The notes: a model not told the origin generated them from the sequence alone. Shown: positions 1,923-19,649, counted from the stretch's first letter. The stretch: DNA of 64,000 nt from an uncultured cyanobacterium (GCA_963744145.1 CAVUSO010000001.1:5792001-5856000), one strand, 5' to 3'. Made by a program: numbers and translations.

Positions 1923-1984
1923 GCGATCGCTAGTAGGTCTCCCAAGAAGAATCACCTTTACCTATTTATAGAAAAGCGATCGCC
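1923..1984 (+). repeat. ~62-bp HIP1-bounded repeat, copy 1 of 8 (others 2465-2526, 3292-3352, ~4615-4669, 13423-13484, 13664-13725, 15524-15585, 17737-17798)
   Basis: Consensus GCGATCGC-tagtaaatctcc(c/a)aagaagaatcacctttccctatttatagaaaa-GCGATCGC, aligned by eye. Copies 4 and 5 have one degenerate HIP1. Confidence 0.9.
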
Positions 1985-2138
1985 TCTATTTCCAATCTCT
2001 ATGTTTACTCTCAGAAGCGATCGCAATTATTAATTCATAAGCGAGGGTTGGAAATAGGAAGCGATCGCCATTGGTAAAATCCGATGAAAAGCAGTTGCTC
2101 AAGTCAAATATTTAATTCATCTTTTGTTGGATAAAATG

Positions 2139-2298
2139 CAATACGGTGCAGTTAACTGTAGGGGCGAAGCATTCGGGCGATTATTTAGCACTTAAATCTG
2201 TTAATATTATATCCGAATGCTGATGCCTACGGCACGCTACGCGAACGCCCGGTCTGCGCCGATATCCCCCAAAAAAAGATGGTAACTGAACCATATTG
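2139..2298. mobile_element. 160-bp MITE with imperfect TIRs and a 10-bp target duplication
   Basis: TIRs CAATACGGTGCAGTTA / TAACTGAACCATATTG. GGATAAAATG is duplicated at 2129-2138 and 2299-2308. An empty paralogous site is at ~15334-15343. Confidence 0.9.
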
Positions 2299-2354
2299 GG
2301 ATAAAATGGTGATAGCGAAGAATGCGATTAGCTTAAACAATTCGGAAGGAAGAA

Positions 2355-2425
2355 GGGCGAAGCATTCCGGGAATAAATTGCTGGTGAGCACCAATAACTG
2401 ATCTGCCGGAATGCTTCGCCCCTAC
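2355..2425. repeat. REP-like hairpin GGGCGAAGCATTCCGG...CCGGAATGCTTCGCCCCTAC (copies also 3134-3249, 13553-13624, 15390-15484, 17627-17697)
   Basis: Inverted repeat with a CTAC/GTAG end. In all five cases it lies ~40 bp upstream of a 62-bp HIP1-bounded repeat. Confidence 0.85.
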
Positions 2426-2580
2426 AAGAAACTCACATTAGATCGCTTTTTTGAGAGGTCGATGGCGATCGCTAGTAAATCTCCCAAACAGAATCACCTT
2501 TCCCTATTGATAGAAAAGCGATCGCCCCCATCCCCAACTTCTAACCTTACAATGGTGGTATAGTATTGGAACTTAAAATC

Positions 2581-3015
2581 ATGTCTACAGAACAGATGGG
2601 CAAAATTACCACCACATTGACTATTACAAACCGAGCCGATCAATCTGCTGCAACACGCGGTTATATTCCCCCAGAACAAGTCCGCTCGATTACCCTAAAA
2701 AACGTGCTAGTAGATACAGGAGCTACTACCCTTTGTTTACCCCCAGAAGCGATCGCCCAGCTAGGTTTAGAACTGCTGCGAGAAGTTGATGTTACCACTG
2801 CGACCGGACTCAGTAAAGCTCGCATTTTTCGAGATGCTAGTATTTTACTAATGGGACGAGAAGGCACCTTTGAATGTCTAGAATTACCTGGTGGACGAGA
2901 TGCTCTTTTGGGAGTGATTCCTCTGGAAGCTTTGGGAATTGAGTTAGACTTACGAAATCAGCAATTAAAAGTTTTACCCGAAACCTCGATCGATACCTAT
3001 TTAACCATCTTGTAA
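2581..3015 (+). CDS. Retropepsin-like (clan AA) aspartyl protease
   Basis: VLVDTGATTL catalytic motif and ALLGVIPLEALG motif. ATG 2581 chosen by comparison with the 19188 paralogue. Confidence 0.85.
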   Translation: MSTEQMGKITTTLTITNRADQSAATRGYIPPEQVRSITLKNVLVDTGATTLCLPPEAIAQLGLELLREVDVTTATGLSKARIFRDASILLMGREGTFECLELPGGRDALLGVIPLEALGIELDLRNQQLKVLPETSIDTYLTIL

Positions 3016-3404
3016 AAATAATCTTCTTTCCAAATCCCAGAGAGCGATCGCAATTATTAACTCATCAATAGGGTTGGAAATAGGAAGCGATCGCTATTGG
3101 TAAAATCCGCTCAAAAACAGTTGAGAAGAAGAAGGGCGAAGCATTCCGGGAATAAATTGCTGGTGAGCACCAATAACTGATCTGCCGGAATGCTGATGCC
3201 TACGGCACGCTGCGCGAACGCGTAGCGTGCCGTAGGCAAACGCCCCTACTACAATAAACTGACATTATATCGCTTGTTTGAGAGGTCGATGGCGATCGCG
3301 TCATATCTCCAAAGCAGAATCACCTTTCCCTATTTAGAGAAAAGCGATCGCCTAGATCCAATCTCTAGCTTTACAATGGTGATCTAGTATTGGAACTCAA
3401 AATA

Positions 3405-3495
3405 ATGTCTACAGAACAAATGGGCAAAATCACCACTACATTGGTAACATCCTAACTGCCGCAGATGTCCTGAATTTACTCGTCAGGGGAATGGG
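3405..3495 (+). pseudogene. Chimeric fragment: aspartyl protease 5' end fused to a toxin-like gene 5' end
   Basis: 3405-3443 matches 2581-2619. 3443-3492 matches 15625-15674. Confidence 0.7.
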
Positions 3496-3606
3496 GCGAT
3501 CGCGTTTTTTGAGGATGGGGCGTGTAATCGCAACAGAAATAAGCTAAACTTTATCCAGGAGGAAACTTTATATTACAAAGCCACGACACTTGCGTAGTTC
3601 GTAATT

Positions 3607-3993
3607 TTGTTAAGAGATAGGATAGGCATTGTGATTCAGGGAGAAGGTTTTACAGTCAAAGAAAGCAAATTGGACTACTTTTTTGGTCGTGCTACATCTA
3701 CCCCGCGCAATGCGAAGCGGTCCTCAAATAATTTAGAAAACCTAAAAAAACTGGGAATTGATGAGACTGTTGATGGCATAGCAAGACTCATTCAAATATT
3801 TCAAGAAGGCTTAAATGCTCCTGAGATTATAGCGTACAGGAAAGACAACGAATACGGAACTAGTATAGCCAGGAAAGTTGAAGTAAGTGGGCCGGATGTA
3901 GTCGGTGCGATCATTGTTAGCTACTACTACCCTGGTGGTAATCGCTCTGTAATCCCTCAAGTTTCCTCAATTATTACCCTCATCTATAAATAG
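3607..3993 (+). CDS. Putative stand-alone polymorphic-toxin-like nuclease (start possibly GTG 3631)
   Basis: 128-aa ORF with KLDYFFGR...N.KRS..N...LG and N.YG motifs reminiscent of RHS/CdiA toxin tips. Followed 8 bp later by an acidic ORF. Confidence 0.5.
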   Translation: MLRDRIGIVIQGEGFTVKESKLDYFFGRATSTPRNAKRSSNNLENLKKLGIDETVDGIARLIQIFQEGLNAPEIIAYRKDNEYGTSIARKVEVSGPDVVGAIIVSYYYPGGNRSVIPQVSSIITLIYK

Positions 3994-17577: not shown

Positions 17578-18120
17578 TCAGTGGCTAAATAAGCGATCGC
17601 AGTCCGAATCAACAAAAGAAGAAGAAGGGCGAAGCATTCCGGTCATAAATTGCTGGTGATCACCAATAACTGATCTGCCGGAATGCTTCGCCCCTACAAT
17701 CAACTGATATTATATCGCTTGTTTGAGATGCCTATGGCGATCGCTAGCAGATCTCCAAAGAAGAATCATATTTCCCTATTTATAGAAAAGCGATCGCCCC
17801 GATCGACCATCTCGCTAACTGACAAAACTACCTCTATTATTTAGGTGAGGATAAAATCTCAAGCGATCGCCATTGATAAAATATAATAAGCGAGCCAATT
17901 TTGATTAAATAACCATAAAATCTTAAACTTTTAGATTTTGTAGAGATTCTTAAACCAGTTTCTATTGAGAGATTAACTCTGGTAGAACCAGAATACAGAT
18001 CAATTCCTAGCTTACCTACTGGACAAGTGCGAACTATCCTTGAAGTTTATGATCAGGAAAAATGGCTTTTCCTGTAGCCAGATTTTTGATATAATGGAAA
18101 AAATATACCATAATCCACTT

Positions 18121-18345
18121 ATGCTAGAATCAGTCCAAACCTCACGACTCCAACAAGCGCTCGATACAGTAGAATCTTTATCGATTGAAGAACAAAACCT
18201 AGTCATTGAAATTCTGCTGAAACGACTCCAGAGAAAACGTCGAGAACAACTACTGCAAGAAATTTCAGAAGTGCGCCAGGAAGTATCTCAAGGTATAATC
18301 CAATTTGGTTCTGTAGGAGATTTTCTCAAAGAGTTAGATGAGTGA
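18121..18345 (+). CDS. Putative antitoxin
   Basis: Helical ORF ending GSVGDFLKELDE and overlapping the RelE-like start by 4 nt. Confidence 0.7.
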   Translation: MLESVQTSRLQQALDTVESLSIEEQNLVIEILLKRLQRKRREQLLQEISEVRQEVSQGIIQFGSVGDFLKELDE

Positions 18346-18620
18346 AAAAAATTGCTTGGACTCCCAAATCTTTACGAGCATACAAACGCCTAATTCGTCA
18401 ACAACCTCAATTGCGAACTGCTTTGGAAGAAACTCTCATCCAACTTGCAATTGATCCTTTTCATCCTACACTCAAAACTCACAAACTATCTGGTGAATTG
18501 AATGGCATTTGGTCAGCTTCAATTGACTACAGTTATAGAATTTTATTTGAATTTATGACAAATGATTCTGAAGATGCAATTTTACTCCTGAACATTGGCG
18601 ACCACGATGATGTTTATTAA
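18342..18620 (+). CDS. RelE/YafQ-type mRNA interferase toxin
   Basis: DPFHPTLKTHKLSG, WSASIDYSYRILF and IGDHDDVY motifs. Confidence 0.9.
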   Translation: MKKIAWTPKSLRAYKRLIRQQPQLRTALEETLIQLAIDPFHPTLKTHKLSGELNGIWSASIDYSYRILFEFMTNDSEDAILLLNIGDHDDVY

Positions 18621-18629
18621 GGCAAAATT

Positions 18630-18769
18630 TAGGTGTTGCTTAATTAGGGTATGAAAATAGGTAATGGGAAAATCCATTAGGGGCACAGTATGGGCCATTA
18701 GGGGCGTATTGCAATACGCTCCTACCAATTTTTGCATTAGTCATTCATACTGTAAATCAGCAACACCTA
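18630..18769. mobile_element. MITE-like element with ~26-bp imperfect inverted ends and an internal REP-like hairpin
   Basis: TAGGTGTTGCTTAATTAGGGTATGAA / TTCATACTGTAAATCAGCAACACCTA. Internal TAGGGGCGTATTGCAATACGCTCCTA. Confidence 0.6.
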
Positions 18770-18776
18770 TTAAAGG

Positions 18777-19153
18777 GATAGGATAAGCATTGTGATTCAG
18801 GGAGAAGGTTTTACAGTCAAAAAAAGCAAATTGGACTACTTTTTGGTTTTGTTACATCTACCCCGCGCAATGCGAAGAGATCCTCAAATAATTTAGAAAA
18901 CCTAAAAGCCATGCCCCTAACTTGTTATATTGTGGAAATCCTCATCTTGGAGGAGGTAACGATAGCAATAACGGAAAATGAGGTACTGGTTTTTAATCCT
19001 GGTGGAGCAATCCGCTATAATTGCGATCTGCCTGACATTCCAGAAGAAATCTCAATTGTCGGCACAAATTTGCTAATTAAAACCATCGCTGGTGATAATT
19101 TAACCATTAATTCGATTGCTGGTAATCTCAAAGAAAAGGCACTATCTGTTTAG
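18777..19153 (+). pseudogene. Internally deleted duplicate of the 3607-4496 toxin/immunity-like pair
   Basis: 18777-18907 matches 3616-3747 and is joined directly to a copy of 4251-4496. Confidence 0.9.
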
Positions 19154-19187
19154 AGGAAAGGGTGTAATCTTTGCATGAACCAAAATC

Positions 19188-19622
19188 ATGTCTACAGAAC
19201 AAATGGGCAAAATCACCACTACATTGACTATGACAAACCGAGCTGATCAGATTCTAGCAAATCACCAGGTCTTTCCAACCCAGCAAGTCCGCTCAATTAC
19301 CCTAAAGAACGTACTAGTAGATACAGGATCTACTACCATGAGTTTACCCCCAGAAGCGATCGCCCAGCTAGGTTTAGAACTGCTGCGATCAGTTGATGTT
19401 ACCACTGCGACCGGACTCAGTAAAGCTCGCATTTTTCGAGATGCTAGTATTTTACTAATGGGACGAGAAGGCACCTTTGAATGTCTAGAATTACCTGGTG
19501 GACGAGATGCTCTTTTGGGAGTGATTCCGCTCGAAGCATTAGGAATTGAATTGGACTTACAGAATCAGCAATTAAAAGTTTTACCCGAAACCTCGATCGA
19601 TACCTATTTAACCATCTTGTAA
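19188..19622 (+). CDS. Retropepsin-like aspartyl protease (paralogue of 2581-3015)
   Basis: VLVDTGSTT motif. 3' two-thirds nearly identical to 2581-3015. Confidence 0.85.
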   Translation: MSTEQMGKITTTLTMTNRADQILANHQVFPTQQVRSITLKNVLVDTGSTTMSLPPEAIAQLGLELLRSVDVTTATGLSKARIFRDASILLMGREGTFECLELPGGRDALLGVIPLEALGIELDLQNQQLKVLPETSIDTYLTIL

Positions 19623-19649
19623 AAATAATCTTCTTTTCATCTGCTTATT

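What the first reader, a model, noticed from the sequence alone, without database searches (positions are those of the whole stretch)
1923..19640. Integron-like cassette array punctuated by eight co-oriented HIP1-bounded repeats
Seen: a ~62-bp unit flanked by HIP1 octamers occurs 8 times in the same orientation (1923, 2465, 3292, ~4615, 13423, 13664, 15524, 17737). Five copies follow the same REP-like hairpin plus a conserved ~40-bp linker. I did not see it in the other 44 kb. Between copies lie short cargoes: aspartyl proteases, two toxin/immunity-like pairs, VapBC, a RelBE-type pair, an ArgRS paralogue, and the 8.5-kb subtilase block (between copies 4 and 5). Similarity between copies often breaks at or near a HIP1, and four copies are followed by a TACAAT -10-like box (~2548, ~3373, ~4688, ~13748). 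Inference: the repeat is a recombination joint and portable promoter that lets conflict cassettes be shuffled, perhaps via HIP1. No integrase is present in the window.
Basis: partly seen in the sequence, partly recalled or inferred. Interest (0 to 1): 0.82.

Follow-up and report, generated by a model that had tools for sequence, protein, structure and literature searches.

The report
HIP1-jointed toxin-antitoxin cassette arrays
Behind the genes for secreted antibacterial toxins, this cyanobacterium and several others carry rows of small toxin, immunity and toxin-antitoxin gene pairs separated by short repeats built around the common eight-base word HIP1, and Microcoleus strains hold such pairs in different orders with no integrase beside them, which gives a natural test case for what HIP1 does.

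Summary
The repeat is real: eight co-oriented copies, found only at this locus of a 7.7-Mb cyanobacterial genome. It is not an integron: no IntI, no attC boxes. Seven of eight copies precede an aspartic-protease leader or its remnant, so the repeat spread by duplicating a ~1-kb unit. The TACAAT box belongs to that leader, not to the repeat. The subtilase block is a second copy of the anchor toxin gene, not cargo. Two cargo genes are orphan polymorphic-toxin tips. Neighbouring segments re-assort exactly at HIP1 several times.

No close relative is available, so shuffling at this repeat is untested. The same cargo sits in Microcoleus/Tychonema arrays punctuated by a different, locus-restricted HIP1-armed hairpin. 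There cassette order is discordant in 19 of 36 pairs, against 0 of 40 flanking-gene pairs, with no inversions. However, 191 of 416 breakpoints lie outside the spacers, so exchange is not site-specific.

Best reading: integrase-free reshuffling by host recombination between direct repeats, with crossovers biased to HIP1. I found no such array in ten literature searches. The scan has noted PeSL-like analogues in cyanophages. New variant of a known kind.

The parts
288..1811 (+). 3' part (two Amidase_6 regions) of an S8-subtilase toxin gene that starts about 6.1 kb upstream of the window and is interrupted by two IS elements; anchor of array 1
1923..1983 (+). repeat copy 1 (HIP1-45 bp-HIP1)
1984..2024 (+). 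collapsed aspartic-protease cassette: leader start fused to the bases before the gene's internal HIP1, then joined at HIP1 to tile C
   Evidence: the 14-mer before this HIP1 matches at 7 of 15,520 HIP1 half-sites, all of them protease copies or this tile
2017..2068 (+). HIP1-to-HIP1 tile C; also at 3044-3094; precisely absent behind copy 5
2061..2464 (+). tile D: begins at HIP1 and holds REP hairpins and the linker. Its start recurs at 3087, 13517, 15266 and 17863, with four different upstream partners in all
2465..2525 (+). repeat copy 2
2526..3015 (+). leader with TACAAT (2548) and intact clan AA aspartic protease gene (ATG 2581), internal HIP1 at 2749
3292..3351 (+). repeat copy 3
3352..3492 (+). 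protease leader and 5' end, fused at 3443 (not at HIP1) to a 50-bp fragment of the 106-aa toxin-tip gene
3607..4496 (+). orphan toxin tip (128 aa; homologues end CdiA/Rhs/eCIS-type proteins) and putative immunity gene (164 aa, inferred from position)
4619..4668 (+). repeat copy 4, left HIP1 lost, fused behind a protease 5' fragment (4520-4600); followed by a leader with TACAAT (4689)
4877..13300 (.). second anchor block: PEP-CTERM-like gene, M50 peptidase in two ORFs, S8 subtilase with LGFP repeats (7282-10659), glycine-zipper ORF, TIGR03032; 6032-9283 is 93% identical to the copy upstream of the window
13423..13483 (+). repeat copy 5 (right end GCGATCAC), followed by the collapsed protease tile and, at HIP1 13517, directly by tile D
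13664..13725 (+). repeat copy 6
13726..13915 (+). protease leader (TACAAT 13748) and 5' half of the gene, ending exactly at its internal HIP1 (13908)
13957..14572 (-). VapBC-type pair (PIN toxin; partner inferred from position)
14932..15126 (+). short ORF whose homologue is a cassette in Microcoleus/Tychonema arrays
15524..15584 (+). repeat copy 7; the only copy not followed by protease-derived DNA
15616..16382 (+). stand-alone 106-aa toxin tip (C-terminus of S8 protein P0034, 81% identical) and 141-aa putative immunity gene; leader starts at the repeat's right HIP1
16432..17577 (+). ArgRS paralogue, split by an in-frame stop; linked to S8-toxin and M50 genes in other cyanobacteria
17737..17797 (+). 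repeat copy 8
18040..18620 (+). RelBE-type pair (RelE/StbE toxin; partner inferred from position)
18773..19622 (+). internally deleted copy of 3612-4592 (deletion ends not at HIP1) running into a second intact aspartic protease gene (19188-19622)

Best explanation
This is the variable tail of a cyanobacterial polymorphic-toxin locus. Behind each S8-subtilase toxin module lies an array of orphan toxin-tip/immunity pairs, type II toxin-antitoxin pairs and aspartic-protease genes. The 62-bp repeat began as the DNA upstream of the protease gene and multiplied when a ~1-kb unit (2017-3051: tile C, tile D with REP hairpin, repeat, leader, protease) was duplicated and then whittled down by deletions (shown from sequence). 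The leftover co-oriented copies now give the host's own recombination machinery direct repeats at which gene pairs can be deleted, duplicated, or added from transforming or sister-chromosome DNA, with exchanges biased to HIP1 octamers (inferred). No dedicated integrase or fixed crossover point is involved. Different lineages use different HIP1-bounded repeats for the same job. In Microcoleus/Tychonema the result is visible as permuted cassette order with fixed orientation (shown). The likely benefit is a pool of immunity genes and spare toxin tips, held in place by TA pairs (inferred from established knowledge of orphan toxin modules).
For: Seven of 8 copies precede protease leader or remnant; 3152 of 9452 array bases match the 2017-3051 unit. 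Tile D starts exactly at HIP1 in 5 places with 4 different upstream partners; tile C is precisely missing behind copy 5; one protease fragment ends at its internal HIP1. 39 of 106 pairwise homology ends in the arrays sit at HIP1 in both copies, against 11% of repeated positions (pairs not independent). 4 of 15 informative site pairs among the eight cores fail the four-gamete test. Both toxin-like ORFs are C-terminal tips of long proteins. 15 of 38 loci holding the 106-aa gene's relatives have 3 or more co-oriented non-coding repeat copies. In 12 Microcoleus-type arrays 53 of 99 marker pairs are discordant in order and none is inverted; with one marker per cassette in 9 syntenic loci it is 19 of 36, against 0 of 40 flanking-gene pairs. 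Filled and empty sites differ by whole HIP1-to-HIP1 units. Genome-wide, 55 of 1203 low-copy paralogy ends share a HIP1, against 72 of 6019 interior windows. Similar repeat-and-TA patchworks with their own repeats occur at C1:2.40, 3.68 and 1.83 Mb. A homologous HIP1 raises integration in Synechococcus PCC 7002 (10.1101/2024.09.10.611283, abstract and introduction).
Against: No second genome holds this repeat (one search scored only 2 candidates per genome), so shuffling at it is inferred by analogy. The Microcoleus tile is not detectably homologous: model R1 scores the window's repeat copies at most 15.3 bits, no better than other HIP1 pairs, and finds 0 matches in G000. In the Microcoleus arrays 191 of 416 adjacency breaks lie outside spacers, and spacer use is no higher than expected if breaks simply avoid genes (134 of 366 against 32.5%; spacers are 31% of non-coding array DNA). 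Several window junctions (3443, 3747/4250, 4600, 13754) are not at HIP1. BLAST ends tend to stop at a shared conserved word, which inflates HIP1 counts; smoothing the histogram gives about twofold enrichment. Toxicity, immunity and expression are untested.
Confidence: 0.6

Rival explanations
1. Duplication and decay only. The repeats are passive debris of tandem duplications, HIP1 words survive at their edges because they are conserved or regenerated, and cassette orders differ through duplication, random loss and independent insertions, with no special role for the repeat.
For: Seven of 8 copies derive from one protease unit. Many cargoes are broken. Spacer breaks are not enriched over non-coding DNA. 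About 41 loci in the genome have locus-restricted repeats, several plainly from whole-gene tandem duplication.
Against: Exact HIP1-to-HIP1 indels and partner swaps with no other homology. 56 of 65 Microcoleus spacers serve as a break at least once. Unrelated repeats occupy the same position in different genera.
Confidence: 0.2
2. HIP1-directed site-specific exchange. A trans-encoded or methylation-guided activity cuts and rejoins at HIP1 (or at HIP1-armed hairpins), so that 8 bp suffice and the arrays are an integrase-free counterpart of integrons.
For: Junctions at HIP1 without flanking homology (13908, 15266, 17863). Spacers are built of HIP1-delimited tiles in variable number and order. The Microcoleus tile is a hairpin with HIP1 arms and a linked three-pair change on both sides in 6 of 25 rows. 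PMC4390886 (passages) cites evidence for site-specific recombination at HIP1.
Against: No tyrosine recombinase on the array contigs of 5 genomes searched or near the window. Breaks are spread over the spacers and beyond. The compensating hairpin variant destroys HIP1 itself, 11 of 25 rows per affected pair include 5 unpaired, and the rows are related. The window repeat has only a weak hairpin, broken in 3 of 8 copies.
Confidence: 0.14
3. The repeat is kept mainly as a transcription signal (a minus-strand terminator or a promoter part), as PeSL elements are, and recombination is a by-product.
For: The right half folds as a 12-14-bp minus-strand RNA hairpin followed by a U-rich tract in 5 of 8 copies (z -2.6 to -4.0); copy 4 is called terminator-like.
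Against: The hairpin is broken in copies 1, 6 and 8. TACAAT goes with the protease leader, not the repeat. No sigma-70-type promoter is called at copies 1-4, and the region has no more such sites than shuffles (6 against 7.8).
Confidence: 0.05
4. A true integron or CALIN with attC sites.
For: Repeats between two-gene TA cassettes resemble chromosomal integron arrays in layout.
Against: No IntI over cut-off in G000 or 5 other genomes. No RYYYAAC...GTTRRRY pair within 120 bp of any of the 8 copies.
Confidence: 0.01

Closest known systems
Orphan toxin/immunity modules behind polymorphic toxin genes (Zhang et al. 2012, PMC3482391, passages; Salmonella rhs, Koskiniemi et al. 2014, PMC3967940, passages)
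   Same: Large secreted carrier with a variable C-terminal tip, followed by stand-alone tip/immunity pairs; rearrangement by duplication and homologous recombination.
   Different: Here the 106-aa tip has its own start codon, and no homology to the window's own carrier genes was seen that would let it fuse. The array is mixed with type II TA pairs and proteases, and the shared homology is an intergenic HIP1-bounded repeat, not toxin coding sequence.
PeSL cassettes of T4-type phages (Arbiol et al. 2010, PMC2839356, abstract and outline)
   Same: Small genes shuffled by recombination between co-oriented intergenic repeats that contain a stem-loop.
   Different: Chromosomal; the repeat is lineage- and locus-specific and bounded by HIP1; no promoter shown in the repeat; no mini-circles shown.
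rAID-1 arrays of Bacteroidales (Ross et al., 10.1101/471110, passages)
   Same: Arrays of orphan immunity genes with repetitive intergenic sequences.
   Different: rAID-1 has a 5' XerD-like recombinase and co-directional genes; neither holds here.
Integrons and CALINs (IntegronFinder paper 10.1101/030866, search listing only; attC features recalled)
   Same: Cassette-like gene pairs, TA-rich, order permuted without inversion.
   Different: No IntI, no attC boxes, no single crossover point.
HIP1 as a recombination or uptake signal (PMC4390886, passages; 10.1101/2024.09.10.611283, abstract and introduction; PMC13756078, abstract and outline)
   Same: Exchange at or stimulated by GCGATCGC.
   Different: What I read of these concerns plasmids, transformation assays and genome-wide statistics; it did not describe natural gene arrays jointed at HIP1.

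Membership tests
Integron / CALIN | Integron integrase IntI | tested here: not met
   TIGR02249 best 25 bits against cut-off 265 in G000; 0 of 5 other genomes over cut-off
Integron / CALIN | attC sites with RYYYAAC...GTTRRRY boxes (motif recalled) | tested here: not met
   0 of 8 copies; IntegronFinder's own models not available
Integron / CALIN | Single fixed crossover point | tested here: not met
   junctions spread over HIP1 and non-HIP1 sites
rAID-1 | XerD-like recombinase 5' of the array | tested here: not met
   the 2 PF00589 matches of G000 lie over 0.8 Mb away; none on the array contigs of 5 genomes
rAID-1 | Co-directional cargo genes | tested here: not met
   VapBC and several Microcoleus cassettes are on the opposite strand
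Polymorphic toxin locus with orphan modules | Large carrier protein with variable C-terminal tip | tested here: met
   S8 proteins of 894-2487 aa with different ends
Polymorphic toxin locus with orphan modules | Downstream stand-alone tips homologous to C-termini of long toxins, each followed by a small gene | tested here: met
Polymorphic toxin locus with orphan modules | Homology allowing an orphan tip to fuse to the main gene | tested here: inconclusive
   no carrier-to-tip similarity seen in the self-comparison of window 1-21000 or among fetched loci; one database protein has the 106-aa tip fused
Polymorphic toxin locus with orphan modules | Toxicity neutralised by the partner gene | not testable with these tools
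   needs expression in a laboratory strain
PeSL-type regulatory cassette | Strong promoter inside the repeat | tested here: not met
   (copies 1-4 scanned); cyanobacterial -10-only promoters are not covered by the scan
PeSL-type regulatory cassette | Terminator stem-loop | tested here: inconclusive
   minus-strand hairpin in 5 of 8 copies
PeSL-type regulatory cassette | Modular shuffling between related genomes at the repeat | tested here: inconclusive
   met for the Microcoleus repeat; no relative holds the window's repeat
PeSL-type regulatory cassette | Excised mini-circles | not testable with these tools
   only assembled contigs of one holding run were available
Dispersed repeat / REP / MITE | Copies spread over the genome | tested here: not met
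   core only at this locus; the adjoining REP hairpin is dispersed

The most novel reading that the evidence does not exclude
HIP1-bounded tiles are substrates of a dedicated, methylation-guided exchange pathway, so that filamentous cyanobacteria run integrase-free cassette arrays: any HIP1-flanked gene pair can be added, removed or reordered behind toxin genes and at other hotspots. That would give HIP1 a direct function in building conflict-gene arrays.
Probability: 0.15. Interest if true: 0.9.

Novelty: new variant of a known kind. Interest (0 to 1): 0.62.

Why it matters
The function of HIP1 is still open after three decades (PMC13756078, abstract). These arrays are a natural place where HIP1 junctions and gene reordering can be seen together, in named Microcoleus and Tychonema genomes, so the question becomes testable with inverse PCR, long reads and reporter assays. 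They also point to a cyanobacterial toxin locus (S8 carrier, orphan tips, ArgRS-like gene, M50 peptidase, HlyD-like gene) that my searches did not find described, and that may matter for competition in soil crusts and mats.

Tried and rejected
Relatives of the repeat: 0 exact pattern matches in genome contigs and metagenome contigs. In 60 other genomes only REP-part or 27-32-bp HIP1-edge hits. In 400 genomes one 28-bp hit, with only 2 candidates scored per genome, so a weak negative. Viral contigs were not scanned.

Sequencing runs: one DNA holder (X1, 0.69 of words) and no RNA holder listed. One X1 contig joins 3928-4409 to 19067-19371 inside the 343-bp gene duplicate, not at the repeat. It is not counted as a real deletion: at 20 of 20 checked positions the 'other letters' of X1 contigs were alleles of the upstream paralogue, so these contigs merge paralogues. 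X2 and X3 laid nothing.

Homology of the window repeat to the Microcoleus tile: rejected. A general self-complementarity of short HIP1-to-HIP1 segments in this genome: not seen (1.34 against 1.40 pairs). Rfam: 0 matches at E up to 1 in window 1-21000. Folding of the whole core depends on the two palindromic HIP1 ends pairing and is not informative. Assembly artefact: rejected, because the copies differ and have distinct flanks, and X1 has depth in all 30 bins. The two largest other HIP1-bounded families that I inspected were TPR-type coding repeats or a tandem minisatellite. The ESM Atlas gave no result for the 106-aa protein. Which of the 9 C5 methyltransferases of G000 methylates HIP1 was not determined. 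No supplementary files were read; strain tables there could already list such arrays.

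
Full report
OBSERVATION. The window lies in a 7.70-Mb, HIP1-rich genome (1.0 GCGATCGC per kb), cyanobacterial by its HIP1 content and by the named homologues of its genes. The repeat is present eight times in one orientation at the stated places and nowhere else in the genome. Six copies have two exact HIP1 ends; copy 4 has lost the left one and copy 5 ends in GCGATCAC. 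Five copies follow a REP-like hairpin and linker; the hairpin is a genome-wide family, with over 100 hits. HIP1 density is 4.9 and 2.2 per kb in the two arrays, against 0.7 in the subtilase block. It is not an attC array: no IntI over cut-off, no RYYYAAC...GTTRRRY pairs at any of the 8 copies (motif recalled), no Rfam match.

WHAT THE LOCUS IS. The first ORF (288-1811) is the 3' end of an S8-subtilase gene that begins about 6.1 kb upstream of the window and is broken by two IS elements; residues 1-830 of the window's S8 protein match it at 82-88%. The locus therefore holds two anchor modules, each followed by an array that starts about 110-120 bp after the module's last stop codon. The 8.5-kb block is the second anchor, not a cassette. 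Both toxin-like cargo genes are polymorphic-toxin tips. The 106-aa ORF is 81% identical to the C-terminus of the S8 protein P0034, the 1 hit among 284 longer candidates. The 128-aa ORF matches the ends of many long proteins, among them TPS/PT-VENN, RHS and eCIS-core proteins (9 of the 150 listed hits were scanned, 4 had such domains). The ArgRS paralogue occurs in 14 of 301 genomes searched, G000 included. In the four longer loci fetched it lies near a large S8-type gene and an M50 peptidase gene; one also has an HlyD-like gene confirmed by Pfam. The cargo is thus partly one conserved system, not a random set.

ORIGIN OF THE REPEAT. Copies 2, 3, 4, 6 and 8 are followed by the aspartic-protease leader or a variant of it. 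Copies 1 and 5 are followed by a 33-bp tile that is the leader start fused to the bases before the protease's internal HIP1: that 14-mer matches at only 7 of 15,520 HIP1 half-sites in the chromosome, all protease copies or the tile itself. Only copy 7 leads into other DNA. A third of the array DNA (3152 of 9452 bases) matches the unit 2017-3051. The TACAAT box belongs to the protease leader, since it also stands before two tandem protease genes at C1:4.36 Mb that lack the intact repeat. The portable-promoter idea is therefore not supported. The right half of the repeat can form a minus-strand hairpin with a U-rich tail in 5 of 8 copies, a possible terminator.

JUNCTIONS IN THE WINDOW. Cutting the arrays at their 35 HIP1 sites (up to one mismatch) shows re-assortment. 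Tile D begins right after HIP1 five times with four different upstream partners. Tile C lies between two HIP1s behind copy 1 and is precisely absent behind copy 5. The protease fragment behind copy 6 stops at its internal HIP1. Of 106 pairwise homology ends, 39 are at HIP1 in both copies, against 11% of repeated positions; these pairs are not independent and the repeat was defined by its HIP1 ends. Four of 15 informative site pairs in the cores show all four gametes, as expected from exchange among copies or from homoplasy. Against a strict HIP1 rule, the fusions at 3443, 3747/4250, 4600 and 13754 are not at HIP1. Genome-wide, 55 of 1203 ends of low-copy paralogous segments share a HIP1, against 72 of 6019 interior windows; allowing for BLAST end bias this is roughly two- to fourfold. 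The genome has 41 loci with locus-restricted non-coding repeats. After five CRISPR-like arrays this one has the most copies, but loci at 2.40, 3.68 and 1.83 Mb have the same build, each with its own repeat and with PIN, XisHI, DUF433 or Uma2 genes between. The locus is the strong end of a recurring pattern.

COMPARISON ACROSS STRAINS. No genome searched holds this repeat, so I followed the cargo. The 106-aa gene gave 38 loci, of which 15 have three or more co-oriented non-coding repeat copies within 8 kb. In 5 of 34 loci examined, a HIP1 stands 29-31 bp before its start codon as in the window; 17 of 34 have none within 200 bp. Microcoleus sp. A003_D6 has its own nine-copy HIP1 repeat behind an S8 gene and USR001 a three-copy one with a protease cassette. 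Thirteen loci, mostly Microcoleus/Tychonema, were compared; one (L069) had a single repeat and was dropped from the order test. The other twelve share a different repeat, a hairpin with HIP1 arms, whose strongest copies cluster on the array contig in the genomes searched. Between copies lie MazF-, ParDE-, VapBC-, DUF433/DUF5615-, GIY-YIG- and DUF6972-type pairs. Of 99 marker pairs seen in two or more loci, 53 occur in both orders, and none is inverted. With one marker per cassette in nine syntenic loci it is 19 of 36, while 0 of 40 flanking-gene pairs are discordant. Between the same two cassettes, L053 has one spacer, while L062, L051, L056, L055 and L060 have extra units that begin and end at HIP1-like words, and the spacers are strings of HIP1-delimited tiles in variable number. 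No tyrosine recombinase lies on the array contigs in the five genomes searched.

Results against. 191 of 416 adjacency breaks lie outside spacers, in 79 sequence contexts, some within genes. Spacers are 13% of array DNA but 31% of its non-coding DNA, so their use is high against the first null and unremarkable against the second. HIP1 itself is within 10 bases of 54 of 366 break clusters, against 9.9% expected in non-coding DNA. The tile's arms covary (23 cells changed on both sides, 0 of 500 shuffles), but mainly through one linked three-base variant among related rows. The window repeat is not homologous to this tile.

MECHANISM. Shown: duplication-derived origin; exact HIP1 junctions; toxin-tip identity by homology; permuted, non-inverted cassette order in relatives with an analogous repeat; absence of IntI and attC. 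Inferred: host homologous recombination between direct repeats, fed by transformation or sister chromosomes and biased to HIP1 (0.6). Rivals are passive decay (0.2), HIP1-specific exchange (0.14), a mainly regulatory role (0.05) and an integron (0.01). Papers fit the inference: a homologous HIP1 raises integration up to 7-fold, and over 100-fold when methylated (10.1101/2024.09.10.611283, abstract and introduction); earlier work links HIP1 to site-specific recombination (PMC4390886, passages).

KNOWN SYSTEMS AND NOVELTY. It works like PeSL shuffling (PMC2839356, abstract and outline; the lead came from earlier scan notes) and like orphan toxin arrays (PMC3482391, PMC3967940, passages). It looks like rAID-1 (10.1101/471110, passages) but lacks the recombinase. 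Ten searches listed no paper whose title or abstract start describes HIP1-jointed toxin/TA arrays in cyanobacteria; three of them returned nothing. The library omits most subscription papers and I read no supplements. The scan's notes held no look-alike stretch.

VERDICT. A real feature and a new variant of a known kind. Interest 0.62, chiefly because the Microcoleus arrays make HIP1's role in natural gene shuffling directly testable.

Noticed in passing
window 16432-17577; L045, L046, L047, L048: An ArgRS paralogue of about 350-370 aa recurs next to large S8-carried toxin genes, an M50 peptidase gene and, in some loci, an HlyD-like gene (14 of 301 genomes). Its role in a toxin locus is unexplained; a tRNA-binding helper or decoy for tRNA-cutting tips is one guess.
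   Followed up: partly
window 10559-10659: The S8 ORF overlaps the 497-aa glycine-zipper ORF, and the one X1 contig covering it is one base shorter at 10643, so the frame relation of the two ORFs may be an assembly or strain difference.
   Followed up: no
window 5484-6989: The M50 peptidase is in two ORFs here; homologues are single proteins of about 470-580 aa.
   Followed up: partly
window 48551-48935 (C1:5840551-5840935): A string of five fragments that is a multiply deleted copy of the neighbouring 907-aa gene; at least one junction falls inside a HIP1. Similar abridged copies lie at C1:2795907-2796214 and window 18773-19249.
   Followed up: no
L091 (C1:4360001-4364500): Two tandem aspartic-protease units bounded by HIP1, beside DUF433/DUF5615, preceded by the first bases of the ArgRS-paralogue gene cut at a HIP1: DNA has moved between this locus and the window's.
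   Followed up: partly
L087, L088, L089, L090; C1:1.29, 1.59, 1.80 Mb: Other patchwork loci with their own HIP1-containing repeats, often ends of CHAT/TPR genes, with TA, XisHI or Uma2 genes between. L090 holds a fused remnant of the 128-aa tip and its partner.
   Followed up: partly
C1:7020200-7021825: A non-coding tandem array of about 86-bp HIP1-containing units (8 copies) beside a tyrosine recombinase gene (7018738-7019853); possibly a mobile-element end or iteron array.
   Followed up: no
L074:7634-16095 (Microcoleus sp. A003_D6): Nine clusters of a HIP1 minisatellite separate small TA-like genes behind a 2487-aa S8 protein: the clearest example of the architecture, with a third repeat sequence.
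   Followed up: partly
Microcoleus tile, alignment A2: A variant swaps both HIP1 arms for GCGAGATC/GATCTCGC, keeping the hairpin but losing the CGATCG methylation site; it may mark locked joints or show that the hairpin matters more than HIP1.
   Followed up: partly
window 21013-22488: A ComM/YifB-type gene (Mg_chelatase, ChlI and Lon_C Pfam hits; the ComM name is recalled) lies 1.4 kb beyond the array; probably coincidental.
   Followed up: no
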